DNA from: Giardia intestinalis
Taxonomy: Eukaryota
NCBI GenBank assembly: GCA_000002435.2
Contig: CM018789.1
Direction: 5' to 3' (one strand)
DNA: 64,000 bases
The notes beneath the pieces were generated by a model that saw only the letters and a list, made by a program, of their open reading frames with translations, had not been told where the DNA came from and did not search any database. How positions within the stretch are numbered: the stretch's first letter is position 1; each line of letters begins with the position of its first letter. Shown piece after piece: positions 5,801-61,759 of this stretch. Position numbers and translations under genes: made by a program.

Positions 5801-5892
5801 ATCTAAGCCTGAGCCGCAGCCGGAGAGCCCGTCACGCGAGACGAAGTAAAACTAAGGTCATACTTCACGGCAATTTACTTCATCCTGCAAAA

Positions 5893-9348: not shown

Positions 9349-9642
9349 TTAAATATAAACCAACGGAATATAATAAACTACATACTGCAAAAGTACAGAA
9401 CTAGGACTTTTGTCAGTAAAGTATACGCCACACCTCTGTCTGTAATTCTTGTGGGCAGTTGTTTGTAGAGAACAATTCTGAGATTTCCTCTTAAGATTGC
9501 AGGTAGGTCCAATCGGCGTTTCAGCTCACATCGCAGAAACCACCATATTATCTCCCTACGGTATGCTGCGTAGAATTGCTCGATTTATGACCATCAACCC
9601 TTAGATTTCTACTTACACTACATTTCGGCTTTCTCAGCGTTT

Positions 9643-10245
9643 ATGACGTTTTTATCGATTCTTGCAAAGGAAATAGGCAGTCCAGATTTGTGTGTCGAGC
9701 CTCGAGCATGCAGTTTGGATTTAACGTTGCAGAGGCCTTCGGACTCCGGCGGTCCTCCTTACAAATCAGTCACTAAGAAGTATGCCTCTCAGGCAGTAGA
9801 AGAAGATCAAAACCGTCTTGGACAGCGTGTAGGGCGATTTTCATGTAGCACAGGGTCTCCCAGCCTTGTAACTAGCCTGGCATTCATTCGCGATTCCCAC
9901 CACTTCTTGTTCTTAGCTGTCGATGAGGACCAGTGCCTCGGGATCCTGAAGGGAGGCATCAAGCATCTCTTTATGCTCGACAGCCAGAGCGAGACCCGCG
10001 AGATGGACGCGATGTGTTGCCTGGACTTCTACACCCATGAGACGGTGCAGCGCCGAGGGATCGGAACACGGCTCTTCCGCGCCATGGGGCTTCACACGCA
10101 TATCTCCGCTCAGGGCTGGGTTTTTGATCGACCCTCTCCGAAGTTGCTGGCCTTCCTCTCGAAGGTGTACGACATGCATGACTTCAAGGCCCAACCCAAC
10201 AACTTCCTCATGCTGGATGCATCCATTCGTCTTTGGGGGGGCTGA
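9643..10245 (+). CDS. ATAT1: alpha-tubulin N-acetyltransferase (MEC-17/alphaTAT1 family)
   Basis: Strong similarity to alphaTAT1 catalytic core: GIKHLFMLD...MCCLDFYTHETVQRRGIGTRLF...DRPSPKLLAFLSKVYDM...QPNNFLMLD matches human KKLFVLD...[22 protein letters not shown]...DRPSQKLLKFLNKHYNL...QVNNFVIF; divergent 295-bp promoter shared with HCMP. Confidence 0.75.
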   Translation: MTFLSILAKEIGSPDLCVEPRACSLDLTLQRPSDSGGPPYKSVTKKYASQAVEEDQNRLGQRVGRFSCSTGSPSLVTSLAFIRDSHHFLFLAVDEDQCLGILKGGIKHLFMLDSQSETREMDAMCCLDFYTHETVQRRGIGTRLFRAMGLHTHISAQGWVFDRPSPKLLAFLSKVYDMHDFKAQPNNFLMLDASIRLWGG

Positions 10246-10846
10246 GTTCAAGCAGTACAGGCGCAGCAAAAAGCACTATATTCCAGATGCATACCTACTT
10301 CCGGAGACCCGGGAAAGCGAGTATCTGGGCGAGGCGGAGCTTACCAAGAGGACGCTCATCAGGAAGTCAACAGCCGTCATTCCCCAAACTAAAACCACTC
10401 AATCAGAGGATGCGCCAGCTCGCGCCTTGACGGCAGATGAACTCCTGTCCAAGCGCTCTGTTGTTCTGCCCACAGCAAGCAGGACCCCTTCCCTTCCGAA
10501 TTAGCCCCAGTCCGTGGCAGTCGCATACATGAATAAACGTAAATGATAATGATTCACTTTACCCCTGGCTATGCCCAGTGCTGTGCTGCTGGAACCTACC
10601 TGTGGGCGTACTCAAGGACCTCACAGGTAAATTGTCGCTCAATTTTTGGCGATGTCCGGAGACGAGGGTTGGTCGTTGATGATATAACGAGAGAATCCTC
10701 TCCATTGATATATCCAGAGCCTGGTGCGCTCCTCTGCCGTTTCGCGGGCGTGTGCTCAGGCTGAGAGTGTGTGTCGGCCCTTTCGGGGTTCAGCTTACTT
10801 ACCCATCTGCGTCGTCCACCAGTGGCGCCTCTCCTTGGTCTGCCGC

Positions 10847-12950: not shown

Positions 12951-13174
12951 GCAGACCGACGTGCATACTCAGACTGAGCACACACCCGCGAAACAGTAGA
13001 GGAGCGCACCAGACTCTAGATGCATCACCGGAGAGGACTCTCTCATTATGTTATCCACGACCAACTCTTGCCTCCGGACGGCCAGGACTTGAACGAAAAT
13101 TTACTCGTGAGACTTTTGGACACACCATCAGGCGGACCTATCAGCACATCTACACAAGCTACGCACAGTAACGC

Positions 13175-18069: not shown

Positions 18070-18333
18070 TGGGCCAAAGGTAGCCTGGTGGCGACACGGG
18101 GCTATGTAAGTAATAGCCGCGGACGCAATCGCCTGTCCATGCACCACATTAACGCACAACCCTCCTTTTCACATGTCCGACTTGGCGAAGGTACCAACCC
18201 AGGCCTTCCAGATTTGTGGTCTAACTTAACATAGGCGATATAGGTAGGGACGATCGTAAGTCGCCAAGAGAACAAATACCCTCAGTAAGCATTTACGTCG
18301 AGTATCATAAAACCCCGCCGCCCTCAACTCAGT

Positions 18334-42879: not shown

Positions 42880-42969
42880 GGGAGCTGGCTGCCGGCTGTG
42901 TCATTTACAGTATAGTGTTCTGGTCTAGCGCAGTTGGCTAGAGAGGCCTCCGGGTCTTCAATAGCACCC

Positions 42970-46668: not shown

Positions 46669-49600
46669 GTAGTGCTGGTCTCTGGGTCCAGACCGGCTGC
46701 GATGTCTGTAACGCTCGGGCCCGTCGCACACAGGCAACGTTCTCGGCTCCCCTATCAAGGATGCCCTGTGGCAAGTAGCGGATGTCCGCCTCCTGAGGTC
46801 TAGCCAGAACATGCTAGGACCGGTGTCTACGCGTGCCCCGGGCTGCCTGCATATGGATGCGCGCTTTCTGCCCGGCGAGTCTGCACAAGCAAGGAAAGCT
46901 AGACAGATTCCATCGTCCGCCTGCATGAACTGTGCATGTGCCCATGTCCTTCGAGCAAGAAGCCTGCAAGAGCTCCCTAGACATCACCGCACTCTCCGAG
47001 CATTGGACTGTGTACCCAAAAAGCAACAGTCCCTGCATGTTCGGCATACAGCTCCCCTGTTATCGTTTGGTCGTAGAGTAAAGGCAGATGACCCCGTCGA
47101 TGATTCGTCCATCTGTCTGTTGCTTCCGGCCTTGTAGTGTTACAACTCCTGTATACGAGTGTGGACCGAAGCTCGTGCAGGCAAGCCTGCTCCATTTATC
47201 GTTTGTCCTATGACGAAGGCAGGTCGGTATGTGGATTAGAGACCATCGCCCCGGGCGGAGCTGGTATCTTCCAGTAGATTTCCCGCCTGTACAAGTTCTC
47301 GAGCAGAGAGCGAGCGCCCTGGCCACAACTGTGTAGAATGTTATCGAGGAAGGGTCCAGCAAAGAAGAACGGCTCTAGCGCGGCGCAAACTATGAGTGTG
47401 TCTAAGTACTGCAGGTTAGGACGATCTATCACGGCATGATTGTTGGTGTCTGTTCTTTGTCTAAAGAGGAAACTCACCAAGAGCTGGGAGTCAGACACAC
47501 ACTTGTCAACTAGTGTAGGGTAGTAGACATAGTCATCATCATTCATCAGGTGGATTATTGCGATAAGAGCTGAGGAGGTATGAACAACATGCTCCCAGTT
47601 ATCTACAGAGCAAACAGTTTTCCTCGCTTTCAGATTGCAGAAGCACTTCAGAGGGCTCTAGCAAGCATTGAAAAACTGTCACTCTTGAGATTGTGTTAAT
47701 ACCTATATGACAGCCAAGCTAGCAGACACGGCAGCGTTGATCAAACGAAGCTTTGGGAATGTGGCCACTCAGTACGATTATTGTTGTCAACCTACTTCTA
47801 ATTGGCGGTGGTGCTTTTCCCAAGTCAAGCTAAAATGATTAAGAAAAAGACTAGTCACGAACAAATTATAGCCGAAGGCCACCCTGAGATGACGAGAAGG
47901 ATACACGACTGAATAACGATAGAGACGCATAGTGTGGGGGACGAAGGTACTGTCTGAAGCTCCAAGAAGACCCATTAGAACCAGGGCATAAATTGGCGAG
48001 GAGTCCCACAGCTTAATCACCGACCTATCTCTGTCTTCGGATATATCGGTAGATAAAGCGTGTTTATCCTTAGGACTCTTGGCTTACGTCTGTAAGCGGG
48101 CTCTGGCAATTCAATATGCAAGGTTCTTTTCTAGCATGACATACTGTACCTCATGTGACGCTTAAGCATGGCCCCTTTTACGTCTCTTTAGGTCGCAACA
48201 TCTGGACGGACCTGTGAACATGTGTACTAAGATGTAGCATCAAGGCATCTTCGAGTCAAAGGCTGTATCTGTGTGAGATTGACGCAGCTTTTAAGAAAAG
48301 TGTCGGCACTCTTGCTAACTACCTAGCTAAAGGAAGAGGGCAACGACTACAAGCGATATGACAGCTCCTGTTTTTGGTATTGAACCCCGGTTAACGTTCT
48401 CTGTTAGTGATTTGCTACAAGGGAAGGCACCGGGACTTCTTCTAATACCACACTTGTTTGCTCTATGTTTATCTGGTCATCACAAAAGTCTGTTGATACG
48501 TATATTTAAGCTATAAGGTAGCGTCATGGTGTGTTGAACAACAAATTCATTGTCCATGCCAAGGTGAATGGCCTCCATCAATAGGCGTTCGCTCTGCTCT
48601 GTCGCCTCACTTATACGAAGAGAACTGTGCTCCGTCTGTGGTTTCTAAAGTCAAGGTCACTTTACAATTCAGCATCTTACTTCATGGTTTTTTAGATTAC
48701 AGCCATTGTACTATGGTGCAGCAGAAGGAACCGTATGCTATGTCACAGGGCCCCTGGTAACAGGGTGCTTTGGAATATCGTTATCTTGACCGTGTCCCGA
48801 TACTAGATGGGCTCCAGTTTAACTATCTAAGCAACGCCTGCTCATATCATCTACCATTTATCTGCACATTCATTGAGGGGCCTGACTGGCACAATAAGGA
48901 ATGCTTCCGTAGCAGTTGAGAGTGCACGTTAGCCTTGCTTAGCAAATACCTGGTGTGGAAACAACATAGACTCGAGGTGGATGCTTGTGGGGTAAAAGGG
49001 CCTGGAAAGATAGATAATAATATCTTCGAATGTTTTATCTGCTGAATTGATTGCCAGTCCAAGAAGCTTGACATAGCGAAAGTCCCTCCATTCCCTTACT
49101 GTGTTCGTGGAAGTGACTATGTCTTCGACGTGACATAGGCCGAACTCCAGCTCTGTATCACATACATCGATAGGACAGACAGAGCATACACCAGAGATTT
49201 ATCACAACACATAGTTTCAAGAGCTTGTAGAAATCGTCCTTGCGAGTTAGCTATTTCAACCTTCTACGCATTTAAAGAGACAGGCCACTTGTGTGGGGAG
49301 TCGGACACCAGCTATTGGTAAGATAACTGTAAAAGAAGCTATAGCGACTTCAATTGTAGTGATCTTGCTCAGAATTTTCTTGGATGCATAAGGTGCTTTA
49401 CCTTTCCTTGAAACCATAGAAACCCATCGCTGAACTCCAAGCTAGATGGCTTCTGGCGCGGAATTCTATGTGATGATCATACATATGTAAATCGTCTATG
49501 GTAGGCTGGCGCGAACCAGAGCAAAAGCCATGCTGTTTAGGCTCACGGTGCCAGTGATGATATAATCTACTGTATAAGCCGATCAACGGATTCTTTCACG

Positions 49601-49723
49601 GTGTTCTAGCCACAGGCGCCTGGAGTTATAGATCTAAGCCTGAGCCGCAGCCGGAGAGCCCGTCACGCGAGACGAAGTAAAACTAAGGTCATACTTCACG
49701 GCAATTTACTTCATCCTGCAAAA

Positions 49724-52700
49724 TTATGTGCGCTTGCACAGGAACCACCACAGGAGAAAACTGACCAGGCCTGTGACAAGGAGGATTGCTGTTACGGATA
49801 CCCCGGCTATCATGGCCGTCTTCCTTGCCGAGCTCGGGGCTGGGGCTGGAACCGGATCTGGGACTGGATCTGGGCCGGGCTTGGGCGTCGGAATGATGCT
49901 CGGGAGCGCATCAAAGGAGTAGCAGAGGACGGATCCGACCTTGCCCTCAGGAGGCATGCAGCAAGTGCATCCGTTGACCCCTTTCATGCCGTTGTTGTCC
50001 GCACCGCACGCTGTGCATGTGAACGCCGATCCAGTTGTCGACTGGTAGTACCCTGTGTCACAGAGGGTGCACATCTGCGGATTGTCCGGGGCAATGCAGG
50101 TGACGCAGCCCTGGGCGCATTTCTGGCACTGGCCGTCCACGCTCACATACCCCAGCTTGCACCTCACACAGGCGTCGGCCGTGCATTCGGCGCAGTTTGC
50201 GATCGAGCACTCTTGAAGGATGCCCGACTCGCTGACCATCTTTCCGTGCGCGCCCTTGGTGCACACGCCCCTCTCCTCTGCATGGCAGACGGTGCGTCCA
50301 GGATATGTGTCCACCTGGTAGCATCCTCCCGACAGGAGGAAGTATCCGTCTGCACAACTCGTGCAGGCGCCGTCGACCACAGAGACGCACGCAGACCCTG
50401 CCCGTGCGGAGGGCCCGACGCATTTGCCGTTCAGAGGGAACGCGGTCTGCACGCTGCATACAGAGCAGTAGCTTGCCCCGTCGATGCTCGCGTCGCACCT
50501 CTTGCAGCCGTCGGCTGACGGGGTACACGGTTTCTTGCACTCCCCGACCCCCGATTCAGACGTTACCGCGTAGCCCGACGGGCAAGACACGCAGCTACTG
50601 GGGCCCTTAGCTACGCAGGTGGCGCACGTGCTGTCGCAAGGAGTGCAGACTCCGTTGTCGGAGAAGTACCCGTCCGAGCACACAGCGCAAAAATTACCGG
50701 CTCCACACTCTTTGCAGTTCGAGATCTCACACAGAGCGCACCTTGCGGGGCTCTTCTCCGTGGCATCAAGTGCGTAGTGCCCGGGAATGCTTCTGCAGTT
50801 GTCCACGCAGGTCCCCACACTGGTGAGGAAGAACCCGGGTCCACAACGCCGACACTTCTTGCCCTCAGTACACTCGGCGCAATCTGGGACCGTGCATGAA
50901 CCCATGGTCTTGGTGGTGCATGTGCCTGCCTGATCCAGAACGTACCCGACCATGCAGTGTGTGCACACCTCCCCCTGGTCATCCATCCTGCACCGCTCGC
51001 AGTTCACCGTGGTACAGGGGCGGCAGACGCCGTCTTGGTTCTCATAGCCGGCGGCACATGCATTGCAAAGACCAAGACCGTAGTTGTTTCCATTAACGTA
51101 ACCAGGAACACCTGCCCAGGTACAGATGCTTTTTCCGGGCTCCTTGCTCTCCTGGTAGCAGCCGCCCATGTACAGGAAATACCCCGCACCACACTGAAGA
51201 CAGCTCCGCGCTGAGTCAAAACCTACGCCAGTCACGCAGCCACTGGGGTGTGCGCTTGCCACGTTAGTGCAAATGCCGTCCACAGGCGCGTGTTCATCTG
51301 TTTTGCACAAGCTACAGTACAGCTTCTCGCCTATTCCCACCACGCACGAACCCGCCGCGCAATTGGGGTCCTCACAGTGGGACAGGCACTTGCCACCAAC
51401 TAATACATAGCCAGCTTTGCAAGCGATGCATCTAACCGAGTCACCTTTCGCGCTACATTCTCTACAACCATTAATCCCTTTAGGATTGGTTGTGTCTCCA
51501 CATTCGATGCATTGGCCACGGTTATACCCAGTAAGAACAAAGAAGTGTGTCCGGAGGTGACAAGATGTGCAGTCATTCTCTTCCGAGCCTCTACATGTAG
51601 CGCACCCCTCGCTACAAGGAAGGCATTTGAGAGCGAAGGGGTGTCCATACATCCCATAGCCACATTGCCACGCATCTACGCAAACTCCGATGTTTTTATG
51701 TATGGGCGATAAGTATTTTTTAGGATGACATGTGAGGCATTGCTCTGGACTTTCTCCTACGCATGTCTTACAGTCATTGTGGCATCGTTTGCAAAACCTC
51801 GGATCGTAGTATCCGTCGATGCAGGATTCGCACGTGTTTGTGTCTTGAGCACACGTCTTACAGTACGGGTCCCGGCAGCGTACGCAAATACCTTTATCAT
51901 TCCGAAATCCACTTGCACATGTCTTACATAACCCAATTTCCTCGGGCTTGGTCCCGACTTCTACGCAAACAAAGTTCTTCTCTTCGAGCTCTACCTGATA
52001 ACATCCTCCTTGGTGAAAGAAGAAACCTGGACCACACTTTTCGCAGCGTCCTTTGCTGGCAATGCAGGCGCGTCGGTTATTGGGCGTGAGTTCGGAACAC
52101 ATACCGTTGAGGGGCGCATGTCCTTCTTTGCAGCGAGAGCAGAGAAGCTCATTCCTCCAAACGACGTCACAGGCGTCTGCCTCACAATACTCAGATGGAT
52201 CATCACATTCTTTCCTGCATTGTCCATCAATAAGTAAACGGTTCGACTCGCACTCTGTGCACTCAACCACCCCGGGGGTACTGGGACGAGTGCAAGCCTT
52301 GCAATTTGCTACTCCTTTCCATCCAGCGTGTCCCTGCTCGTCTCCACAGGAAACACACCTCCCCGTTCCATTCTCTGCTGCCAGAAAATAGCCCTCCGAT
52401 TCATTGCAAGAGGTGCAATCTGTTTCATTAGGTCCTTCGCAGGTTTGACACGCACCAGAGCATTTTTTGCATTGTCGCAGCTGAGTAGGGGCTACGTAGA
52501 AGCCAACTCCACACTGAGAGACGCAAACACGCTTGGTTGTTCCCTTAAGATACCCGCGACCACAAACTGCACACGAATCATCAGCCGCACACCTAGGGCA
52601 GTCTGGGATCTCGCATCTGTAGCAAATGTCTCCGTTCGGATTAGGCTTGTGTGTCGAGAGCTTACACTTGACACATAGGGCCACGTCAGGACCCTTAGAC

Positions 52701-53179
52701 TTAGACGGCGAGAGGCAATGCAGGCAACCGGCAACTCCTACAAAGTCCGCCACTCCTGTTGTGTCATCACACCGAACACACGAATCGACTGTTTGCGACG
52801 CTGCAGGGTTCCTAAAGAAACCAGACGTACAAGACTTGCAAACTCCTTTATCGCACTCGCTACATATAAGGTTCCCGGGGTAAAGATTACCGCACGCGTA
52901 GCAGCCTCCTTTGTATAGATACATGGAGTCTGTACACATCCCGCACCTCTTTTCGCTTACAATGGGTGTACCATCTGCACTCTTGCATGAAGAGTGTTGC
53001 TCGCTATCATACTTAATGCAGTGTCCGTTGAAGGGTATGTAGCCAGCATTCCTACACTCTGTGCACAGCTCGTGGCCGTTGATCTCCTCGCAACGGTCCT
53101 CTGCGCAATCGCTGACCTGGTTGGAGTGTGTACACTTCGCTGCTTGAAAGGCGATCAGCAGACCAAGGACCGCAAGCAT
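49724..53179 (-). CDS. high-cysteine membrane protein (identical to 5893..9348 product)
   Basis: 1151-aa translation identical to copy 1. Confidence 0.8.
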   Translation of the reverse strand: MLAVLGLLIAFQAAKCTHSNQVSDCAEDRCEEINGHELCTECRNAGYIPFNGHCIKYDSEQHSSCKSADGTPIVSEKRCGMCTDSMYLYKGGCYACGNLYPGNLICSECDKGVCKSCTSGFFRNPAASQTVDSCVRCDDTTGVADFVGVAGCLHCLSPSKSKGPDVALCVKCKLSTHKPNPNGDICYRCEIPDCPRCAADDSCAVCGRGYLKGTTKRVCVSQCGVGFYVAPTQLRQCKKCSGACQTCEGPNETDCTSCNESEGYFLAAENGTGRCVSCGDEQGHAGWKGVANCKACTRPSTPGVVECTECESNRLLIDGQCRKECDDPSEYCEADACDVVWRNELLCSRCKEGHAPLNGMCSELTPNNRRACIASKGRCEKCGPGFFFHQGGCYQVELEEKNFVCVEVGTKPEEIGLCKTCASGFRNDKGICVRCRDPYCKTCAQDTNTCESCIDGYYDPRFCKRCHNDCKTCVGESPEQCLTCHPKKYLSPIHKNIGVCVDAWQCGYGMYGHPFALKCLPCSEGCATCRGSEENDCTSCHLRTHFFVLTGYNRGQCIECGDTTNPKGINGCRECSAKGDSVRCIACKAGYVLVGGKCLSHCEDPNCAAGSCVVGIGEKLYCSLCKTDEHAPVDGICTNVASAHPSGCVTGVGFDSARSCLQCGAGYFLYMGGCYQESKEPGKSICTWAGVPGYVNGNNYGLGLCNACAAGYENQDGVCRPCTTVNCERCRMDDQGEVCTHCMVGYVLDQAGTCTTKTMGSCTVPDCAECTEGKKCRRCGPGFFLTSVGTCVDNCRSIPGHYALDATEKSPARCALCEISNCKECGAGNFCAVCSDGYFSDNGVCTPCDSTCATCVAKGPSSCVSCPSGYAVTSESGVGECKKPCTPSADGCKRCDASIDGASYCSVCSVQTAFPLNGKCVGPSARAGSACVSVVDGACTSCADGYFLLSGGCYQVDTYPGRTVCHAEERGVCTKGAHGKMVSESGILQECSIANCAECTADACVRCKLGYVSVDGQCQKCAQGCVTCIAPDNPQMCTLCDTGYYQSTTGSAFTCTACGADNNGMKGVNGCTCCMPPEGKVGSVLCYSFDALPSIIPTPKPGPDPVPDPVPAPAPSSARKTAMIAGVSVTAILLVTGLVSFLLWWFLCKRT

Positions 53180-53473
53180 TTAAATATAAACCAACGGAAT
53201 ATAATAAACTACATACTGCAAAAGTACAGAACTAGGACTTTTGTCAGTAAAGTATACGCCACACCTCTGTCTGTAATTCTTGTGGGCAGTTGTTTGTAGA
53301 GAACAATTCTGAGATTTCCTCTTAAGATTGCAGGTAGGTCCAATCGGCGTTTCAGCTCACATCGCAGAAACCACCATATTATCTCCCTACGGTATGCTGC
53401 GTAGAATTGCTCGATTTATGACCATCAACCCTTAGATTTCTACTTACACTACATTTCGGCTTTCTCAGCGTTT

Positions 53474-54076
53474 ATGACGTTTTTATCGATTCTTGCAAAG
53501 GAAATAGGCAGTCCAGATTTGTGTGTCGAGCCTCGAGCATGCAGTTTGGATTTAACGTTGCAGAGGCCTTCGGACTCCGGCGGTCCTCCTTACAAATCAG
53601 TCACTAAGAAGTATGCCTCTCAGGCAGTAGAAGAAGATCAAAACCGTCTTGGACAGCGTGTAGGGCGATTTTCATGTAGCACAGGGTCTCCCAGCCTTGT
53701 AACTAGCCTGGCATTCATTCGCGATTCCCACCACTTCTTGTTCTTAGCTGTCGATGAGGACCAGTGCCTCGGGATCCTGAAGGGAGGCATCAAGCATCTC
53801 TTTATGCTCGACAGCCAGAGCGAGACCCGCGAGATGGACGCGATGTGTTGCCTGGACTTCTACACCCATGAGACGGTGCAGCGCCGAGGGATCGGAACAC
53901 GGCTCTTCCGCGCCATGGGGCTTCACACGCATATCTCCGCTCAGGGCTGGGTTTTTGATCGACCCTCTCCGAAGTTGCTGGCCTTCCTCTCGAAGGTGTA
54001 CGACATGCATGACTTCAAGGCCCAACCCAACAACTTCCTCATGCTGGATGCATCCATTCGTCTTTGGGGGGGCTGA
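53474..54076 (+). CDS. ATAT1: alpha-tubulin N-acetyltransferase (copy 2)
   Basis: 200-aa translation identical to 9643..10245. Confidence 0.75.
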   Translation: MTFLSILAKEIGSPDLCVEPRACSLDLTLQRPSDSGGPPYKSVTKKYASQAVEEDQNRLGQRVGRFSCSTGSPSLVTSLAFIRDSHHFLFLAVDEDQCLGILKGGIKHLFMLDSQSETREMDAMCCLDFYTHETVQRRGIGTRLFRAMGLHTHISAQGWVFDRPSPKLLAFLSKVYDMHDFKAQPNNFLMLDASIRLWGG

Positions 54077-54677
54077 GTTCAAGCAGTACAGGCGCAGCAA
54101 AAAGCACTATATTCCAGATGCATACCTACTTCCGGAGACCCGGGAAAGCGAGTATCTGGGCGAGGCGGAGCTTACCAAGAGGACGCTCATCAGGAAGTCA
54201 ACAGCCGTCATTCCCCAAACTAAAACCACTCAATCAGAGGATGCGCCAGCTCGCGCCTTGACGGCAGATGAACTCCTGTCCAAGCGCTCTGTTGTTCTGC
54301 CCACAGCAAGCAGGACCCCTTCCCTTCCGAATTAGCCCCAGTCCGTGGCAGTCGCATACATGAATAAACGTAAATGATAATGATTCACTTTACCCCTGGC
54401 TATGCCCAGTGCTGTGCTGCTGGAACCTACCTGTGGGCGTACTCAAGGACCTCACAGGTAAATTGTCGCTCAATTTTTGGCGATGTCCGGAGACGAGGGT
54501 TGGTCGTTGATGATATAACGAGAGAATCCTCTCCATTGATATATCCAGAGCCTGGTGCGCTCCTCTGCCGTTTCGCGGGCGTGTGCTCAGGCTGAGAGTG
54601 TGTGTCGGCCCTTTCGGGGTTCAGCTTACTTACCCATCTGCGTCGTCCACCAGTGGCGCCTCTCCTTGGTCTGCCGT

Positions 54678-56727
54678 CCTGGTGGGTGAGGCTCTGGTCG
54701 CCGTCTTTTTTAGATGCTCCCGTCTGCCAGGGGCTGCCACCGGGCTCTCCGCTGGCTGGGCCCCTCGGTGTCCAGTCAGCTGTGGTCCTGGGCAGTGGTC
54801 CCACAGTCGCGGTCGCTTGGGTCCCAGCGGGCCGGCTGGTGGGGATGCGGGGGCTGGAGGGGACCGGGGGGTGTTCGTATGTGCCTCTGGGTCTGGCGGA
54901 CTGGGGTGATCGCAGCTGTGGTGACTGGGGGCTATCCATCTGTGACTCACCCCTCTGTGAACTCGTGGTCTGTGAGTGCCTCCACCCAGACAACCCTCAG
55001 GAGCCGTGCACACCGGGACAGAGAGGGTGACCAAGGGGAGTTAAGCAGCCCCGCTACGAGAGATGAGGGTGCACAGCAACCAGCCTGGGCTGCATGGCCT
55101 GCTCGAGCGATGTAGTGGCAGACGGCTCCCTCTGACAGCGACCCTGGTGACTGCACTGGTCTGCTCTCGAGACTGGGTGACAGTGCACACAGATGGACAT
55201 GAGTGCAGGAGGACCATCCACACACGGACAGACTGTGTGGACCCAGAGAGGACTGGAGTCTACTCGGGACACGCTGACTGTGCCCCATACGAGAGCACCA
55301 GGCAACCACCCGAGCACCCGAGAGGCAGCAACAGACACGGGCACCAGAGATCCCCAGCCAGACACCTTGCTATGCTCATCCACAGGGGCATCAGAGGGCC
55401 AGGTGGAGTCACCCTCACAATCAGGGCCTGATAGGAAGCCAGAGGACTCAAACACTACAGCACAGCAGGCCCAAGGGAGGCACACTCCAGGCAGGTGAGC
55501 AGTGGCAGAGCCCTGATAGCTGCCAGCCCCCCATGACACCCAGGCAGGCACCAGACTCACCGAAGACTCCGCTGGCCTCCACCGATGACCCGAGGGGGCA
55601 GCAGCCAGAGGAGCGAGGAGGCCTTCGGATGCCACAAGAGGCCCGGCTGTCCAGCAGGCGATGGAGCATAGGTGACCTCTGAGCACTATACAGGCACAGG
55701 GCTGACCATCAGAGTGATGCCCGATCACAGAGACGACCACGAGCACCCTCCACCGCACTCTGGGGCCGTCAATCATCCCACTGCCTCTCATAGCAGACCT
55801 CCTTGAGGGCAGTGCAGTGGGTCCCAGCTCATGCAGGAGGGTGCACGCCTCCCCTGGCATAGGACACCCCGGCTCTCCTCGAGGGGTCATCAGAGCCACG
55901 AGAGGTGTCAAGGTCCTGGTGGACCACACCGGGAACTCCCGAACGGGCACAGCAGATGTGAGGTATGGGTGACCCTCAGTGTGCTCCTCTCTGCATGGTA
56001 GAGCATCCTGAGACCAAGGAGGATCAGCCTGCCTATGAACAACACACAGCACTCCACAACGAGGACCCACCAGGAGCAGCACAGTTGGTCACGGGGACCC
56101 TCCAGTCACCAGTGCCCCACCGTGCCAGTCTTCTGGGCCATCACACTAGAGGCATGAGAGAACTCATCCCATCCACAGGATCATCCATGCCCCTGCTGGC
56201 CCGAGGTGAACTGCACCCATCGAGGCACTGGACAGGGCATACCAGGGGCCTAGCAGACCCGCACAGAGCATCAGGAGGGGCTGCGATGGCCTGCCTCAAC
56301 CCTCACGCACCAGCCAGACAGAGAGGCAATACTGCCTGGGACATGCAGAGGCCAAGGGAGGCACTCAGTCAGGGGGACACAACACGATCGTCGGTGTCTG
56401 TGTCTCAGGAGTGCAACGAAGGCTGGGGATCAGACACAGCCACCTTGGCAAATAGAGTGGGGATCACCCACCGCCACACTGGCCCATCAGACCCAGAGGC
56501 ACATACGACACAGCCCACCTCAGCCCCCCACCAGTCCTCACCCACCAACCCCGCCTCACCCACCAGCCGGACCCGCTATGGGACCCAAGCGACCGCGACT
56601 GTGGGACCACTGCCCAGGACCACAGCTGACTGGACACCGAGGGGCCCAGCCAGCGGAGAGCCCGGTGGCAGCCCCTGGCAGACGGGGCATCTAAAAAAGG
56701 ACAGTGACCAGAGCCTCACCCACCAAG
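54678..56727. repeat. GC-rich palindrome spacer element, inverted relative to 10847..12950
   Basis: Copy-1 ORFs 10880..11605(-) and 11513..12304(+) reappear as 55965..56978(+) and 55054..56082(-); coordinate sum ~67574. Confidence 0.6.
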
Positions 56728-59700
56728 GCGGCAGACCAAGGAGAGGCGCCACTGGTGGACGACGCAGATGGGTAAGTAAGCTGAACCCCGAAAGGGCCGA
56801 CACACACTCTCAGCCTGAGCACACGCCCGCGAAACGGCAGAGGAGCGCACCAGGCTCTGGATATATCAATGGAGAGGATTCTCTCGTTATATCATCAACG
56901 ACCAACCCTCGTCTCCGGACATCGCCAAAAATTGAGCGACAATTTACCTGTGAGGTCCTTGAGTACGCCCACAGGTAGGTTCCAGCAGCACAGCACTGGG
57001 CATAGCCAGGGGTAAAGTGAATCATTATCATTTACGTTTATTCATGTATGCGACTGCCACGGACTGGGGCTAATTCGGAAGGGAAGGGGTCCTGCTTGCT
57101 GTGGGCAGAACAACAGAGCGCTTGGACAGGAGTTCATCTGCCGTCAAGGCGCGAGCTGGCGCATCCTCTGATTGAGTGGTTTTAGTTTGGGGAATGACGG
57201 CTGTTGACTTCCTGATGAGCGTCCTCTTGGTAAGCTCCGCCTCGCCCAGATACTCGCTTTCCCGGGTCTCCGGAAGTAGGTATGCATCTGGAATATAGTG
57301 CTTTTTGCTGCGCCTGTACTGCTTGAACTCAGCCCCCCCAAAGACGAATGGATGCATCCAGCATGAGGAAGTTGTTGGGTTGGGCCTTGAAGTCATGCAT
57401 GTCGTACACCTTCGAGAGGAAGGCCAGCAACTTCGGAGAGGGTCGATCAAAAACCCAGCCCTGAGCGGAGATATGCGTGTGAAGCCCCATGGCGCGGAAG
57501 AGCCGTGTTCCGATCCCTCGGCGCTGCACCGTCTCATGGGTGTAGAAGTCCAGGCAACACATCGCGTCCATCTCGCGGGTCTCGCTCTGGCTGTCGAGCA
57601 TAAAGAGATGCTTGATGCCTCCCTTCAGGATCCCGAGGCACTGGTCCTCATCGACAGCTAAGAACAAGAAGTGGTGGGAATCGCGAATGAATGCCAGGCT
57701 AGTTACAAGGCTGGGAGACCCTGTGCTACATGAAAATCGCCCTACACGCTGTCCAAGACGGTTTTGATCTTCTTCTACTGCCTGAGAGGCATACTTCTTA
57801 GTGACTGATTTGTAAGGAGGACCGCCGGAGTCCGAAGGCCTCTGCAACGTTAAATCCAAACTGCATGCTCGAGGCTCGACACACAAATCTGGACTGCCTA
57901 TTTCCTTTGCAAGAATCGATAAAAACGTCATAAACGCTGAGAAAGCCGAAATGTAGTGTAAGTAGAAATCTAAGGGTTGATGGTCATAAATCGAGCAATT
58001 CTACGCAGCATACCGTAGGGAGATAATATGGTGGTTTCTGCGATGTGAGCTGAAACGCCGATTGGACCTACCTGCAATCTTAAGAGGAAATCTCAGAATT
58101 GTTCTCTACAAACAACTGCCCACAAGAATTACAGACAGAGGTGTGGCGTATACTTTACTGACAAAAGTCCTAGTTCTGTACTTTTGCAGTATGTAGTTTA
58201 TTATATTCCGTTGGTTTATATTTAAATGCTTGCGGTCCTTGGTCTGCTGATCGCCTTTCAAGCAGCGAAGTGTACACACTCCAACCAGGTCAGCGATTGC
58301 GCAGAGGACCGTTGCGAGGAGATCAACGGCCACGAGCTGTGCACAGAGTGTAGGAATGCTGGCTACATACCCTTCAACGGACACTGCATTAAGTATGATA
58401 GCGAGCAACACTCTTCATGCAAGAGTGCAGATGGTACACCCATTGTAAGCGAAAAGAGGTGCGGGATGTGTACAGACTCCATGTATCTATACAAAGGAGG
58501 CTGCTACGCGTGCGGTAATCTTTACCCCGGGAACCTTATATGTAGCGAGTGCGATAAAGGAGTTTGCAAGTCTTGTACGTCTGGTTTCTTTAGGAACCCT
58601 GCAGCGTCGCAAACAGTCGATTCGTGTGTTCGGTGTGATGACACAACAGGAGTGGCGGACTTTGTAGGAGTTGCCGGTTGCCTGCATTGCCTCTCGCCGT
58701 CTAAGTCTAAGGGTCCTGACGTGGCCCTATGTGTCAAGTGTAAGCTCTCGACACACAAGCCTAATCCGAACGGAGACATTTGCTACAGATGCGAGATCCC
58801 AGACTGCCCTAGGTGTGCGGCTGATGATTCGTGTGCAGTTTGTGGTCGCGGGTATCTTAAGGGAACAACCAAGCGTGTTTGCGTCTCTCAGTGTGGAGTT
58901 GGCTTCTACGTAGCCCCTACTCAGCTGCGACAATGCAAAAAATGCTCTGGTGCGTGTCAAACCTGCGAAGGACCTAATGAAACAGATTGCACCTCTTGCA
59001 ATGAATCGGAGGGCTATTTTCTGGCAGCAGAGAATGGAACGGGGAGGTGTGTTTCCTGTGGAGACGAGCAGGGACACGCTGGATGGAAAGGAGTAGCAAA
59101 TTGCAAGGCTTGCACTCGTCCCAGTACCCCCGGGGTGGTTGAGTGCACAGAGTGCGAGTCGAACCGTTTACTTATTGATGGACAATGCAGGAAAGAATGT
59201 GATGATCCATCTGAGTATTGTGAGGCAGACGCCTGTGACGTCGTTTGGAGGAATGAGCTTCTCTGCTCTCGCTGCAAAGAAGGACATGCGCCCCTCAACG
59301 GTATGTGTTCCGAACTCACGCCCAATAACCGACGCGCCTGCATTGCCAGCAAAGGACGCTGCGAAAAGTGTGGTCCAGGTTTCTTCTTTCACCAAGGAGG
59401 ATGTTATCAGGTAGAGCTCGAAGAGAAGAACTTTGTTTGCGTAGAAGTCGGGACCAAGCCCGAGGAAATTGGGTTATGTAAGACATGTGCAAGTGGATTT
59501 CGGAATGATAAAGGTATTTGCGTACGCTGCCGGGACCCGTACTGTAAGACGTGTGCTCAAGACACAAACACGTGCGAATCCTGCATCGACGGATACTACG
59601 ATCCGAGGTTTTGCAAACGATGCCACAATGACTGTAAGACATGCGTAGGAGAAAGTCCAGAGCAATGCCTCACATGTCATCCTAAAAAATACTTATCGCC

Positions 59701-61650
59701 CATACATAAAAACATCGGAGTTTGCGTAGATGCGTGGCAATGTGGCTATGGGATGTATGGACACCCCTTCGCTCTCAAATGCCTTCCTTGTAGCGAGGGG
59801 TGCGCTACATGTAGAGGCTCGGAAGAGAATGACTGCACATCTTGTCACCTCCGGACACACTTCTTTGTTCTTACTGGGTATAACCGTGGCCAATGCATCG
59901 AATGTGGAGACACAACCAATCCTAAAGGGATTAATGGTTGTAGAGAATGTAGCGCGAAAGGTGACTCGGTTAGATGCATCGCTTGCAAAGCTGGCTATGT
60001 ATTAGTTGGTGGCAAGTGCCTGTCCCACTGTGAGGACCCCAATTGCGCGGCGGGTTCGTGCGTGGTGGGAATAGGCGAGAAGCTGTACTGTAGCTTGTGC
60101 AAAACAGATGAACACGCGCCTGTGGACGGCATTTGCACTAACGTGGCAAGCGCACACCCCAGTGGCTGCGTGACTGGCGTAGGTTTTGACTCAGCGCGGA
60201 GCTGTCTTCAGTGTGGTGCGGGGTATTTCCTGTACATGGGCGGCTGCTACCAGGAGAGCAAGGAGCCCGGAAAAAGCATCTGTACCTGGGCAGGTGTTCC
60301 TGGTTACGTTAATGGAAACAACTACGGTCTTGGTCTTTGCAATGCATGTGCCGCCGGCTATGAGAACCAAGACGGCGTCTGCCGCCCCTGTACCACGGTG
60401 AACTGCGAGCGGTGCAGGATGGATGACCAGGGGGAGGTGTGCACACACTGCATGGTCGGGTACGTTCTGGATCAGGCAGGCACATGCACCACCAAGACCA
60501 CGGGTTCATGCACGGTCCCAGATTGCGCCGAGTGTACTGAGGGCAAGAAGTGTCGGCGTTGTGGACCCGGGTTCTTCCTCACCAGTGTGGGGACCTGCGT
60601 GGACAACTGCAGAAGCATTCCCGGGCACTACGCACTTGATGCCACGGAGAAGAGCCCCGCAAGGTGCGCTCTGTGTGAGATCTCGAACTGCAAAGAGTGT
60701 GGAGCCGGTAATTTTTGCGCTGTGTGCTCGGACGGGTACTTCTCCGACAACGGAGTCTGCACTCCTTGCGACAGCACGTGCGCCACCTGCGTAGCTAAGG
60801 GCCCCAGTAGCTGCGTGTCTTGCCCGTCGGGCTACGCGGTAACGTCTGAATCGGGGGTCGGGGAGTGCAAGAAACCGTGTACCCCGTCAGCCGACGGCTG
60901 CAAGAGGTGCGACGCGAGCATCGACGGGGCAAGCTACTGCTCTGTATGCAGCGTGCAGACCGCGTTCCCTCTGAACGGCAAATGCGTCGGGCTCTCCGCA
61001 CGGGCAGGGTCTGCGTGCGCCTCTGTGGTCGACGGCGCCTGTACGAGTTGTGCAGACGGATACTTCCTCCTGTCGGGAGGATGCTACCAGGTGGACACAT
61101 ATCCTGGACGCACCGTCTGCCATGCAGAGGAGAGGGGCGTGTGCACCAAGGGCGCGCACGGAAAGATGGTCAGCGAGTCGGGCATCCTTCAAGAGTGCTC
61201 GATCGCAAACTGCGCCGAATGCACGGCCGACGCCTGTGTGAGGTGCAAGCTGGGGTATGTGAGCGTGGACGGCCAGTGCCAGAAATGCGCCCAGGGCTGC
61301 GTCACCTGCATTGCCCCGGACAATCCGCAGATGTGCACCCTCTGTGACACAGGGTACTACCAGTCGACAACTGGATCGGCGTTCACATGCACAGCGTGCG
61401 GTGCGGACAACAACGGCATGAAAGGGGTCAACGGATGCACTTGCTGCATGCCTCCTGAGGGCAAGGTCGGATCCGTCCTCTGCTACTCCTTTGATGCGCT
61501 CCCGAGCATCATTCCGACGCCCAAGCCCGGCCCAGATCCAGTCCCAGATCCGGTTCCAGCCCCAGCCCCGAGCTCGGCAAGGAAGACGGCCATGATAGCC
61601 GGGGTATCCGTAACAGCAATCCTCCTTGTCACAGGCCTGGTCAGTTTTCT
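56728..61650. repeat. inverted copy (palindrome right arm) of the alpha-TAT/HCMP part of the duplicated block
   Basis: Reverse-complement match to 49755..54677 (and 5924..10846) at ~99.7% judged from a handful of amino-acid differences in overlapping ORFs; identity decays over last ~40 bp near 61650. Confidence 0.8.
57329..57931 (-). CDS. ATAT1: alpha-tubulin N-acetyltransferase (copy 3, inverted arm)
   Basis: Identical 200-aa translation. Confidence 0.75.
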   Translation of the reverse strand: MTFLSILAKEIGSPDLCVEPRACSLDLTLQRPSDSGGPPYKSVTKKYASQAVEEDQNRLGQRVGRFSCSTGSPSLVTSLAFIRDSHHFLFLAVDEDQCLGILKGGIKHLFMLDSQSETREMDAMCCLDFYTHETVQRRGIGTRLFRAMGLHTHISAQGWVFDRPSPKLLAFLSKVYDMHDFKAQPNNFLMLDASIRLWGG

Positions 61651-61759
61651 TCTACGGTGGCTCTTATGTAGGCGTACGCAGTCCCATGAGACGAAGCGTG
61701 TTACTCTTACTCGGAAACGTGTTCCCATTATTACATCTATCACTGCGCCATTGACTTGA
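58226..61759 (+). CDS. high-cysteine membrane protein, variant copy (4 substitutions; stop lost, 26-aa C-terminal extension)
   Basis: 1177 aa; TKTMGSC->TKTTGSC, VGPSARAGSACVSV->VGLSARAGSACASV, tail FLLWWFLCKRT* -> FLLRWLLCRRTQSHETKRVTLTRKRVPIITSITAPLT*. Confidence 0.7.
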   Translation: MLAVLGLLIAFQAAKCTHSNQVSDCAEDRCEEINGHELCTECRNAGYIPFNGHCIKYDSEQHSSCKSADGTPIVSEKRCGMCTDSMYLYKGGCYACGNLYPGNLICSECDKGVCKSCTSGFFRNPAASQTVDSCVRCDDTTGVADFVGVAGCLHCLSPSKSKGPDVALCVKCKLSTHKPNPNGDICYRCEIPDCPRCAADDSCAVCGRGYLKGTTKRVCVSQCGVGFYVAPTQLRQCKKCSGACQTCEGPNETDCTSCNESEGYFLAAENGTGRCVSCGDEQGHAGWKGVANCKACTRPSTPGVVECTECESNRLLIDGQCRKECDDPSEYCEADACDVVWRNELLCSRCKEGHAPLNGMCSELTPNNRRACIASKGRCEKCGPGFFFHQGGCYQVELEEKNFVCVEVGTKPEEIGLCKTCASGFRNDKGICVRCRDPYCKTCAQDTNTCESCIDGYYDPRFCKRCHNDCKTCVGESPEQCLTCHPKKYLSPIHKNIGVCVDAWQCGYGMYGHPFALKCLPCSEGCATCRGSEENDCTSCHLRTHFFVLTGYNRGQCIECGDTTNPKGINGCRECSAKGDSVRCIACKAGYVLVGGKCLSHCEDPNCAAGSCVVGIGEKLYCSLCKTDEHAPVDGICTNVASAHPSGCVTGVGFDSARSCLQCGAGYFLYMGGCYQESKEPGKSICTWAGVPGYVNGNNYGLGLCNACAAGYENQDGVCRPCTTVNCERCRMDDQGEVCTHCMVGYVLDQAGTCTTKTTGSCTVPDCAECTEGKKCRRCGPGFFLTSVGTCVDNCRSIPGHYALDATEKSPARCALCEISNCKECGAGNFCAVCSDGYFSDNGVCTPCDSTCATCVAKGPSSCVSCPSGYAVTSESGVGECKKPCTPSADGCKRCDASIDGASYCSVCSVQTAFPLNGKCVGLSARAGSACASVVDGACTSCADGYFLLSGGCYQVDTYPGRTVCHAEERGVCTKGAHGKMVSESGILQECSIANCAECTADACVRCKLGYVSVDGQCQKCAQGCVTCIAPDNPQMCTLCDTGYYQSTTGSAFTCTACGADNNGMKGVNGCTCCMPPEGKVGSVLCYSFDALPSIIPTPKPGPDPVPDPVPAPAPSSARKTAMIAGVSVTAILLVTGLVSFLLRWLLCRRTQSHETKRVTLTRKRVPIITSITAPLT

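What the first reader, a model, noticed from the sequence alone, without database searches (positions are those of the whole stretch)
49755..61650. Large palindrome: HCMP plus alpha-TAT arms inverted around a GC-rich ~2-kb centre
Copy 2 (minus-strand HCMP 49724-53179, plus-strand alpha-TAT 53474-54076, small ORF 54374-54595) is mirrored by an inverted copy: small ORF 56810-57031(-), alpha-TAT 57329-57931(-), HCMP 58226-61759(+). The symmetry centre lies near 55.7 kb. The arms are about 4.9 kb and roughly 99.7% identical. The window therefore carries three HCMP and three alpha-TAT genes, head-to-head around shared 295-bp promoters. Palindromes of this size favour intra-chromosomal gene conversion and hairpin or cruciform formation. 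Their co-location with a VSP fits the Cys-rich surface-protein neighbourhoods known to be recombinogenic in Giardia, but the alpha-TAT amplification is unexpected.
Basis: seen in the sequence. Interest (0 to 1): 0.7.

Follow-up and report, generated by a model that had tools for sequence, protein, structure and literature searches.

The report
Giardia surface-protein gene palindrome, real
The 12-kb palindrome is real, but it is one more of the near-identical inverted surface-protein gene pairs already catalogued in Giardia, and the "alpha-TAT genes" in its arms are three copies of one broken pseudogene.

Summary
The window comes from the Giardia intestinalis WB reference chromosome. The arms are 49728-54851 and 56549-61677. 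Their 4,922-nt cores (49755-54676 / 56729-61650) differ at only 4 positions. Between them lies a 1,697-nt spacer of about 62% GC with no detectable coding content.

A third copy lies at 2998-13111. It has no differences from the left arm and its left flank over 7,848 nt. There the spacer sits between old, short inverted repeats (about 400 nt, 84% identical) and is inverted relative to locus 2.

The palindrome is best read as this short repeat-spacer-repeat unit with its repeats extended to 5.1 kb and kept uniform by homologous recombination. A contig from another isolate has the short-repeat form with the spacer flipped.

An assembly artefact is unlikely. The arms carry SNPs, the two inner ends are of different types, the right flank is unique, and a protein fragment from the 2007 Sanger annotation matches the right-arm-specific HCMP tail exactly.

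The HCMP genes are intact. The alpha-TAT ORFs are remnants of a gene with 2 in-frame stops, at least 3 frameshifts and a 3' truncation.

Identical inverted VSP/HCMP pairs with 2-4 kb spacers are already documented (Adam 2010; Xu 2020). This is a new member of a known kind, of modest interest.

The parts
49728..54851 (.). Left arm of the palindrome (near-perfect core 49755-54676)
   Evidence: only 4 mismatches in the 4,922-nt core against the right arm. No differences from copy 1 (5897-10845).
56549..61677 (.). Right arm of the palindrome (near-perfect core 56729-61650)
   Evidence: A left-arm position p corresponds to right-arm position 111405 - p.
54852..56548 (.). Unique spacer ('centre'): 1,697 nt, 62% GC, only 14% T on the + strand, no detectable coding content
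   Evidence: Composition. No Pfam family in any of six frames and no Rfam family. It is the reverse complement of 11024-12713 in copy 1. Copies at 83-88% identity occur in ENA contigs L010 and L011.
49724..53179 (-). HCMP (VSP-like high-cysteine membrane protein), 1,151 aa, intact
   Evidence: PF03302 3.1e-103. Exact match to KAE8301702.1 / XP_001707065.1. The tail is ...LLWWFLCKRT*, not CRGKA.
58226..61759 (+). HCMP, 1,177 aa, intact. It has 6 substitutions relative to the left copy and a 26-aa C-terminal extension, because the arm ends just before the stop codon
   Evidence: (KAE8301703.1). Its last 197 aa equal XP_001704348.1 from the 2007 annotation.
53539..54372 (+). Alpha-TAT (MEC-17) pseudogene, left-arm copy. 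The 200-aa ORF 53474-54076 is its open remnant
   Evidence: PF05301 6e-32. Against the intact orthologue L012/P0027 it has a 10-nt deletion near 53579, TAG stops near 53626 and 53659, a 1-nt deletion near 53696 and a 1-nt insertion near 54066. Homology to the full-length 3' end in Logan contig L001 stops at 54372.
57033..57866 (-). Alpha-TAT pseudogene, right-arm copy (ORF remnant 57329-57931)
   Evidence: Mirror image of the left copy with no differences.
54677..54851 (.). Inner end of the left arm, 'beta' type, matching the short right repeat of copy 1. The switch from arm-type to beta-type sequence falls between 54651 and 54676
   Evidence: Four-way alignment; list of differences.
56549..56728 (.). 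Inner end of the right arm, 'alpha' type, identical to the inner arm end of copy 1
   Evidence: (I12).
54841..54871 (+). Canonical G-quadruplex motif at the junction of the beta repeat and the spacer
   Evidence: Only 3 such motifs occur in the 64 kb. Two of them are this junction, here and at 12694-12724(-) in copy 1.
61651..61725 (+). Zone of ancient homology just outside the right arm: an HCMP transmembrane/tail/3'UTR remnant
   Evidence: Compared with 49754-49680: 35 identical, 31 transitions, 9 transversions in 75 nt. None of 20,000 random pairs had as few transversions.
46829..49727 (.). 2.9-kb gene-free left flank, duplicated together with the arm (equals 2998-5896)
   Evidence: No differences from copy 1. 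The left junction is abrupt and non-homologous. No Pfam hit in six frames.
2998..13111 (.). Paralogous locus 1. It comprises the flank 2998-5896, HCMP 5893-9348(-), alpha-TAT pseudogene 9708-10541(+), short repeat 10620-11023, spacer 11024-12713 (inverted relative to locus 2) and short repeat 12714-13111 (84% identical to its partner)
13204..18159 (-). True VSP with a CRGKA tail and 13 tandem 294-bp repeats; its 3' end lies 93 nt from the short repeat of locus 1

Best explanation
This is a real inverted segmental duplication in the Giardia WB genome. It belongs to a small family of paralogous HCMP loci that recombine with one another.

The basic unit, seen at locus 1 and in another isolate, is a 1.7-kb GC-rich non-coding spacer flanked by short old inverted repeats. 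These repeats are about 400 nt long and 84-87% identical. The unit sits between an HCMP/alpha-TAT-pseudogene cassette and a VSP gene.

At locus 2 the inverted repeat has been extended outward from the short repeat to 5.1 kb. The extension copies the cassette (truncated alpha-TAT pseudogene, 294-nt divergent intergenic region, whole HCMP gene) onto the other side of the spacer. The most likely route is homologous invasion within the short repeat, followed by break-induced replication or long-tract gene conversion. The copied tract ends in an ancient, diverged HCMP 3' end in the right flank. The three copies have since been kept nearly identical by further gene conversion. The spacer can flip by recombination between the repeats.

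The functional results are a second, slightly different HCMP gene with an altered cytoplasmic tail, plus extra copies of a dead alpha-TAT gene.

Shown here: the architecture, the identity gradients, the relationship of the copies, the repeat types, the spacer inversion between loci and between isolates, and the pseudogene lesions. Inferred: the recombination mechanism and the order of events.
For: 1. The architecture and identity are established.
2. Locus 2 can be written almost entirely from locus 1 sequence. It equals 2998-10845 (0 differences in 7,848 nt) followed by the reverse complement of about 12890-5897. The single switch lies in a 25-nt window (54651-54676) inside the short repeat.
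3. The two inner arm ends are of different types. The left is beta and the right is alpha, and each equals the opposite-side repeat of locus 1.
4. The spacer is inverted between locus 1 and locus 2 relative to the same flank and arm.
5. In ENA contig L011 the arm and the VSP flank match locus 1 on one strand while the spacer matches on the other. Its repeats are 87% identical with a longest exact match of 77 nt, so the assembly path is unambiguous.
6. The right outer boundary drops from 99.9% identity to a 75-nt zone of 31 transitions and 9 transversions. That fits an old homologous HCMP 3' end, given a background transition:transversion count of 108:14 between WB and DH.
7. The right-arm HCMP keeps T759 and L923, which the DH orthologue also has. 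Locus 1 and the left arm share the derived residues. The copies are therefore related as ((locus 1, left arm), right arm), and identity has been restored more than once.
8. The fourth paralogue, P0003, is a mosaic: residues 1-294 are 100% identical, then 295-660 diverge.
9. Independent support for the sequence: XP_001704348.1 from the 2007 annotation equals the right-arm-specific C-terminus, and Illumina-based Logan contigs are 100% identical across 52298-54496.
10. The class is documented in this strain.
Against: - No reads were available, so neither the connectivity across both arms and the spacer nor the copy number could be checked directly.
- One clean event does not explain the data. Spacer identity between the two loci varies from 100% on the alpha side to 91-93% at 12400-12850, and 99% in the beta repeat.
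- The left boundary of the direct duplication is an abrupt, non-homologous junction. That looks like a duplication breakpoint, not the end of a conversion tract.
- The DH (assemblage AII) contig at the orthologous site shows no second arm. It shows the repeat, 170 nt of spacer, and then an unrelated ORF. The palindrome may be specific to WB/AI, or the DH short-read contig may be collapsed.
Confidence: 0.75

Rival explanations
1. Assembly artefact: a chimeric or fold-back long read, or a mis-join of collapsed repeats, created a palindrome that does not exist in the cell.
For: The arms are 5 kb long and nearly identical, which is hard to assemble. Earlier duplicated VSP pairs were once questioned as artefacts. 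No reads could be examined here. The DH contig shows no second arm.
Against: Fold-back artefacts give perfect arms with little or no spacer. Here there is a 1.7-kb unique spacer, 4 SNPs between the arms, different alpha and beta inner ends, and a unique right flank that continues to a tRNA-Ile gene. The right-arm-specific HCMP C-terminus is present as a separate protein in the 2007 annotation. The repeat-spacer-repeat architecture occurs independently in another isolate. Xu et al. report that duplications up to 20 kb were resolved and that chromosome sequences were oriented using optical maps.
Confidence: 0.07
2. Transposon-driven duplication: the repeat-spacer-repeat unit is a fold-back or terminal-inverted-repeat mobile element, or a retrotransposon relic, and its movement carried or duplicated the neighbouring genes.
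For: The unit has terminal inverted repeats and occurs at more than one locus. It is found next to different VSP-family genes in L010 and L011 and twice in this window. Published work reports retrotransposon remnants between head-to-head pairs and proposes transposition-driven duplication.
Against: No reverse transcriptase, transposase or any other Pfam domain appears in six frames of the spacer or of the 2.9-kb flank. No target-site duplication was evident at the outer repeat ends. The arm boundaries lie inside homologous sequence: the short repeat on the inside and the old HCMP 3' end on the outside. That is what recombination predicts, not insertion.
Confidence: 0.1
3. Selected gene amplification: the copies are maintained because extra HCMP and/or alpha-TAT dosage is advantageous.
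For: Three intact, nearly identical HCMP ORFs are retained. The alpha-TAT catalytic core (about 370 nt) remains open and conserved.
Against: All alpha-TAT copies share two stops, at least three frameshifts and a 3' truncation. The same stops occur in DH and in Logan contig L001, so inactivation predates the duplications. GenBank protein accession numbers run consecutively across the three sites, so no CDS appears to be annotated there. The non-coding flank and spacer are just as identical as the coding parts, which indicates recency or conversion, not selection on the protein.
Confidence: 0.08

Closest known systems
Identical inverted pairs of vsp genes in Giardia WB (vsp1267 and 13 others: Adam et al. 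2010, PMC2996952; 19 pairs in Xu et al. 2020, PMC7000408)
   Same: Same organism and same gene superfamily (PF03302). There are two near-identical ORFs in inverted orientation and a unique non-coding spacer of a few kb. The flanks are identical up to an abrupt point of divergence. Head-to-head cases are known.
   Different: The genes are HCMPs (tail CKRT, not CRGKA). The two ORFs are not identical (1,151 vs 1,177 aa). The arms are 5.1 kb and include a second, dead gene, so the ORF-to-ORF distance is 5,046 nt, against the published 2,190-3,847 nt. A third, direct copy lies 43.8 kb away.
Duplicated CRMP/HCMP pairs and shared intergenic sequences of head-to-head pairs (bioRxiv 10.1101/2022.03.07.483299)
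   Same: That paper reports 3 identical CRMP pairs: one head-to-tail and two head-to-head. It also reports similar intergenic sequences among head-to-head pairs. The two 1,151-aa copies here fit the description of a head-to-tail pair.
   Different: That paper counts only pairs identical in amino-acid sequence, so the 1,151/1,177 palindromic pair may not have been listed. It attributes the duplications to transposition, whereas the boundaries here point to homologous recombination. I could not check its supplementary tables for these gene identifiers.
Palindrome formation and inverted duplication seeded by short inverted repeats (Tetrahymena rDNA palindrome, fusion of nearby inverted repeats in yeasts, human DUP-TRP/INV-DUP rearrangements). 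Recalled from my own knowledge, not checked here.
   Same: A short pre-existing inverted repeat supplies the homology for a strand or template switch. The product has long inverted arms around the former spacer. One junction is homologous and the other is not.
   Different: No dicentric or terminal palindrome results; the event is local and interstitial. The mechanism is inferred from sequence only.
Ampliconic palindromes of the human Y chromosome, and flip-flop inversion between large inverted repeats (plastid genomes, the yeast 2-micron plasmid). Recalled from my own knowledge.
   Same: Arm-to-arm identity above 99.9% is maintained by gene conversion. The spacer orientation is variable.
   Different: The scale here is kilobases, not hundreds of kilobases. 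No site-specific recombinase is implied.

Membership tests
Giardia inverted identical VSP/CRMP gene pair | Two genes of the VSP/cysteine-rich membrane protein family in inverted orientation | tested here: met
   PF03302 at 3e-103 and 2e-101. The ORFs are 49724-53179(-) and 58226-61759(+), head-to-head.
Giardia inverted identical VSP/CRMP gene pair | The two ORFs are identical | tested here: not met
   Identity is 99.5% over 1,151 aa, with 6 substitutions and a 26-aa extension in the right copy. They are near-identical, not identical.
Giardia inverted identical VSP/CRMP gene pair | Non-coding DNA of 2-4 kb between the members, and flanks identical up to an abrupt divergence | tested here: met
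   The unique spacer is 1.7 kb, or 2.05 kb between the near-perfect cores. It has no Pfam or Rfam hit. Divergence is abrupt at both the inner and outer ends. The ORF-to-ORF distance (5,046 nt) exceeds the published range because the arms include the alpha-TAT pseudogene.
Variant-specific surface protein (VSP) proper | Conserved C-terminal CRGKA tail | tested here: not met
   The HCMP copies end ...CKRT* or ...CRRTQSHETKR.... The neighbouring gene at 13204-18159 does end in CRGKA*.
Alpha-tubulin N-acetyltransferase (MEC-17/ATAT1, PF05301) | Sequence homology to the catalytic domain | tested here: met
   PF05301 scores 111 bits against a cut-off of 27. PDB alpha-TAT chains match at 3e-23.
Alpha-tubulin N-acetyltransferase (MEC-17/ATAT1, PF05301) | An intact reading frame covering the whole catalytic domain, including the conserved N-terminal helix with the catalytic glutamine (Q58 in the human enzyme; residue recalled from my own knowledge) | tested here: not met
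   The N-terminal 60 residues of the orthologues are encoded in other frames with two TAG stops. There is a frameshift before ...PVTS and another after IRLWG, and the 3' end is truncated.
Fold-back or terminal-inverted-repeat transposable element | Terminal inverted repeats | tested here: met
   10620-11023 vs 13111-12714 is 84% identical. The L011 repeats are 87% identical.
Fold-back or terminal-inverted-repeat transposable element | Target-site duplications and/or a transposase; many dispersed copies | tested here: inconclusive
   No protein domain was found in six frames. No target-site duplication was evident at the outer ends. Only 2 copies were seen in the window and 2 in one metagenome sample. 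The whole genome could not be searched.
Non-LTR retrotransposon remnant between head-to-head pairs (Xu 2020) | Reverse-transcriptase homology in the spacer | tested here: not met
   Six-frame Pfam scans of 54600-56800 and of the 2.9-kb flank found no RVT or other domain.
Long-read fold-back assembly artefact | Perfect arms, negligible spacer and no independent support | tested here: not met
   There are 4 SNPs, differing alpha/beta inner ends and a 1.7-kb spacer. A protein from the 2007 annotation matches the right junction.
Long-read fold-back assembly artefact | No single read spans both arms and the spacer | not testable with these tools
   No read data were accessible.

The most novel reading that the evidence does not exclude
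The roughly 2.5-kb unit is a recurrent nucleation site from which Giardia builds its identical inverted surface-protein gene pairs. The unit consists of short inverted repeats, a G-quadruplex motif at the repeat/spacer junction, and a GC-rich, T-poor spacer. Fork stalling or breakage at the unit would trigger a template switch between the short repeats. That switch copies whatever gene lies outside, giving a palindrome whose spacer can then flip. If the same unit sits between other head-to-head VSP/HCMP pairs, as the published 'shared intergenic sequences' hint, this would give a general, testable mechanism for expansion and homogenisation of the antigen repertoire.
Probability: 0.25. Interest if true: 0.55.

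Novelty: new member of a known kind. Interest (0 to 1): 0.33.

Why it matters
- **Annotation and read mapping.** The region holds three HCMP genes, two of them with different cytoplasmic tails, plus three copies of a dead alpha-TAT gene. Reads from these copies will map to more than one place.
- **Mechanism.** This locus keeps the short-repeat precursor form (locus 1) and the extended palindrome (locus 2) side by side on one chromosome, and the switch point is mapped to 25 nt. That makes it a convenient natural example for testing how Giardia generates and homogenises inverted pairs of surface-antigen genes.
- **Side observation.** Every assemblage A alpha-TAT copy seen here is disrupted, while other Giardia lineages keep an intact gene. 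This raises the question of which enzyme acetylates tubulin K40 in WB.

Tried and rejected
1. **Hypermutation at the right outer boundary.** The 75-nt zone is almost entirely transitions, which suggested RIP-like or deaminase editing. I rejected this because ordinary WB-versus-DH divergence already shows 108 transitions to 14 transversions. A two-parameter substitution estimate predicts about 23 transitions and 6 transversions per 60 nt at that depth, against 25 and 4 observed.
2. **One clean fold-back event from locus 1.** This does not fit. The right arm keeps ancestral residues, and spacer identity is patchy.
3. **'Gene Z' downstream in the DH contig.** A protein search returned nothing, so it could not be placed in WB.
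4. **The fourth paralogue, P0003.** I tried to fetch its locus, but it is not on record.
5. **Coding or RNA content of the spacer and the flank.** Six-frame Pfam scans and Rfam found nothing.
6. **Target-site duplications at the repeat ends.** None were evident.
7. **Literature on a Giardia alpha-TAT.** Nothing relevant was found.
8. **Be-2/WB comparison paper.** It has no information on this locus.
9. **Bacterial promoter/terminator scans and the phage, plasmid and E. coli collections.** I did not use them because the sequence is eukaryotic.

Full report
**Source and gene content**

Exact protein look-ups place the window on the 1,485,438-bp contig of the Giardia intestinalis WB (ATCC 50803) reference assembly. 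The 1,151-aa ORFs equal KAE8301681.1 and KAE8301702.1 ('High cysteine membrane protein VSP-like'). The 1,177-aa ORF equals KAE8301703.1. The chaperonin CCT-epsilon at 40673-42334 equals KAE8301698.1.

Pfam assigns the large ORFs to PF03302 (Giardia VSP family, E about 1e-103). It assigns the 200-aa ORFs to PF05301 (MEC-17 alpha-tubulin acetyltransferase, 6e-32).

**The observation**

- The repeat finder reports arms 49728-54711 / 56694-61677, continuing at 54719-54826 / 56579-56686.
- Self-blastn gives 5,113 nt at 99.65% identity.
- A base-by-base alignment shows a 4,922-nt core (49755-54676 / 56729-61650) with only four mismatches, all in the HCMP gene. All remaining differences lie in the inner 175 nt and the outer 27 nt.
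- The spacer is 1,697 nt (54852-56548). It is 62% GC, with only 14% T on the + strand.
- The third copy is confirmed. 2998-11023 matches 46829-54851 in direct orientation, and 5914-13111 matches 54451-61660 in inverted orientation.

**Anatomy of the two loci**

- Locus 1 reads: a 2.9-kb gene-free flank, then HCMP(-), the alpha-TAT remnant(+) and a short repeat (10620-11023). A spacer follows (11024-12713), then a second short repeat in inverted orientation (12714-13111, 84% identical to the first). A true VSP gene(-) comes last; it has a CRGKA tail and 13 tandem 294-bp repeats.
- Locus 2 reads: the same flank, HCMP(-) and alpha-TAT remnant(+), then the repeat, the spacer, and a full 5.1-kb inverted arm.
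- With the flank and arm held in the same orientation, the spacer of locus 1 is the reverse complement of the spacer of locus 2.
- A four-way alignment of the inner ends shows two sequence types. 'Alpha' is carried by the arm end of locus 1 and by the right arm of locus 2. 'Beta' is carried by the short right repeat of locus 1 and by the left arm of locus 2.
- The left arm of locus 2 changes from arm-type to beta-type within 54651-54676.
- Locus 2 can therefore be written as locus 1 positions 2998-10845 followed by the reverse complement of about 12890-5897.

**Relationship of the copies**

- Locus 1 and the flank plus left arm of locus 2 have no differences over 7,848 nt. The first difference is at 10846.
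- Their shared left boundary is abrupt, with no homology beyond it.
- The right arm differs from both at four sites. At two of the three amino-acid differences (T759, L923) it keeps the residue also found in the DH (assemblage AII) orthologue. The relationship is therefore ((locus 1, left arm), right arm).
- Spacer identity between the two loci is patchy: 100% on the alpha side, 91-93% at 12400-12850, and 99% in the beta repeat.
- A fourth paralogue, P0003, is recorded on a contig of different length (1,539,535 bp), so it probably lies on another chromosome. It is 100% identical over residues 1-294 and then diverges.
- This mosaic indicates repeated gene conversion among paralogues, not a single event.

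**The outer right boundary**

Beyond 61650 identity drops sharply, but the next 75 nt are still homologous to the left copy. They show 35 identities, 31 transitions and only 9 transversions. None of 20,000 random pairs had as few transversions.

I first considered hypermutation. Ordinary divergence between WB and DH already shows 108 transitions to 14 transversions, so the zone fits a very old HCMP 3' end. The tract of near-identity therefore ends inside pre-existing homologous sequence. That is expected for conversion or break-induced copying captured by diverged homology.

Because the arm stops just before the stop codon, the right HCMP has W1144R, F1146L, K1149R and a 26-aa extension.

**Evidence from other genomes**

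- ENA contig L011 comes from a metagenome sample (ERZ27317378). It carries the HCMP/alpha-TAT arm (97.4% identical), a short repeat, a spacer, a second short repeat and a VSP 3' end. It is therefore a locus-1-type arrangement.
- In L011 the arm and the VSP flank match locus 1 on the minus strand, while the spacer matches on the plus strand. The spacer is flipped relative to WB locus 1.
- The L011 repeats are 87% identical with a longest exact match of 77 nt, so the contig path is not ambiguous.
- Contig L010 from the same sample has a shorter repeat-spacer-repeat unit next to a 506-aa VSP.
- The DH contig L006 is colinear with the window from 34029 through the flank and left arm at 98.6% identity. 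After the repeat and 170 nt of spacer it runs into an ORF that is absent from the window and has no detectable homologue. No second arm is visible in DH.
- Illumina-based Logan contigs are 100% identical to the arms over 52298-54496.

**Artefact check**

- The palindrome has a long unique spacer, SNPs between the arms, different inner-end types, and a unique right flank that continues to a tRNA-Ile gene.
- The 197-aa protein XP_001704348.1 from the 2007 annotation equals the right-arm-specific C-terminus exactly.
- Xu et al. state that duplications up to 20 kb were resolved. They oriented the chromosome sequences using optical maps.
- I could not examine reads, so a small residual doubt remains.

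**The alpha-TAT remnants**

Only two relatives were found in the 5.8-billion-protein set: P0027 (299 aa) and P0028 (350 aa). Their genes, on L012 and L009, are intact. L009 lies among unrelated genes, none of them a VSP-family gene, and not next to an HCMP.

When the WB DNA is aligned to L012 (73.5% nucleotide identity from 53539), these lesions appear:

- a 10-nt deletion near 53579;
- in-frame TAG stops near 53626 and 53659;
- a 1-nt deletion near 53696;
- a 1-nt insertion near 54066.

Homology to the full-length 3' end seen in Logan contig L001 stops at 54372. The same stops are present in DH and in L001, so inactivation predates the duplications.

The 200-aa ORF starts upstream of the ancestral ATG, and its first 62 codons are out of frame. 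GenBank protein accession numbers run consecutively across all three sites, so no CDS appears to be annotated there. The 'alpha-TAT amplification' is a pseudogene carried along with the HCMP gene.

**The spacer and the flank**

- No Pfam domain appears in six frames of the spacer or of the 2.9-kb flank.
- No Rfam family matches apart from the tRNA.
- The reverse-transcriptase remnants reported between some head-to-head VSP pairs are not detectable here.
- A canonical G-quadruplex motif lies exactly at the junction of the beta repeat and the spacer in both loci. Only three such motifs occur in the 64 kb.

**Comparison with what is known**

- Adam et al. 2010 describe 14 identical inverted vsp pairs, head-to-head or tail-to-tail. 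They have 2,190-3,847 nt between ORFs and flanks identical up to an abrupt divergence.
- Xu et al. 2020 list 19 VSP pairs and report that 6.9% of the genome is duplicated.
- The 2022 bioRxiv study adds three CRMP/HCMP pairs and notes shared intergenic sequences among head-to-head pairs.
- Pollo et al. 2020 predict many inversions within WB from nanopore reads.
- The present palindrome fits this class. It has longer arms, a pseudogene passenger, non-identical ORFs and a linked third copy.

**Verdict**

The palindrome is real and well characterised, but it is a new member of a known kind. Its main added value is that the short-repeat precursor form and the extended form sit side by side, with a mapped switch point. 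Interest is modest (0.33).

The most novel reading not excluded is that the repeat-spacer-repeat unit is a general nucleation site for Giardia's inverted antigen-gene pairs. I give that a probability of about 0.25.

Noticed in passing
window 53539-54372, 57033-57866, 9708-10541; loci L006, L001, L012, L009: Every assemblage A alpha-TAT (MEC-17) copy seen (three in WB, plus DH and one Logan isolate) shares two in-frame stops and frameshifts. Intact orthologues exist in two other Giardia-like lineages (P0027 and P0028). No other alpha-TAT from WB was found in the protein collection. This raises the question of how WB acetylates tubulin K40.
   Followed up: partly
window 13204-18159 (-), repeats 14167-17994: A true VSP with a CRGKA tail contains 13 near-perfect tandem 294-bp (98-aa) repeats. 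Each repeat also hits Pfam BmKX (PF09132).
   Followed up: partly
window 46829-49727 and 2998-5896: A 2.9-kb stretch has no ORF of 150 aa or more and no Pfam hit in six frames. That is unusual for this compact genome. It is duplicated with no differences, and its left junction is abrupt.
   Followed up: partly
window 63200-64000: A region of about 67% GC with only 13% T has a composition very like the palindrome spacer, but shows no detectable sequence similarity to it. It lies just beyond a tRNA-Ile(GAT) gene at 63087-63169(-).
   Followed up: no
L006 21079-22089 (DH contig AHGT01000087.1): An open frame of at least 337 aa follows the short repeat in DH. Its first 20 or so codons and its promoter resemble the outer part of the short repeat in WB (ATGTCCGGAGACGAGG at 10652, 54483 and 56922). 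It has no homologue in the 5.8-billion-protein collection and no match in the window.
   Followed up: partly
window 34029-46760 vs L006 1-12700: Orthologous divergence between WB (AI) and DH (AII) is strongly biased to transitions: 108 transitions to 14 transversions in 12.7 kb, at 99.0% identity.
   Followed up: yes
protein P0003 (KAE8301925.1) vs window 49724-53179: A fourth HCMP paralogue is recorded on a contig of different length (1,539,535 bp), so it probably lies on another chromosome. It is a mosaic: residues 1-294 are identical, 295-660 are about 70% identical, and the rest is nearly identical. This suggests gene conversion between chromosomes. Logan contigs break at 52298 and 54496, which may mark the ends of the shared tract. 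EukProt numbering hints that the 2007 assembly placed this paralogue near two alpha-TAT copies.
   Followed up: partly
window 54841-54871 (+) and 12694-12724 (-): A canonical G-quadruplex motif sits exactly at the junction of the beta repeat and the spacer in both loci. Only three such motifs occur in the whole 64 kb.
   Followed up: partly
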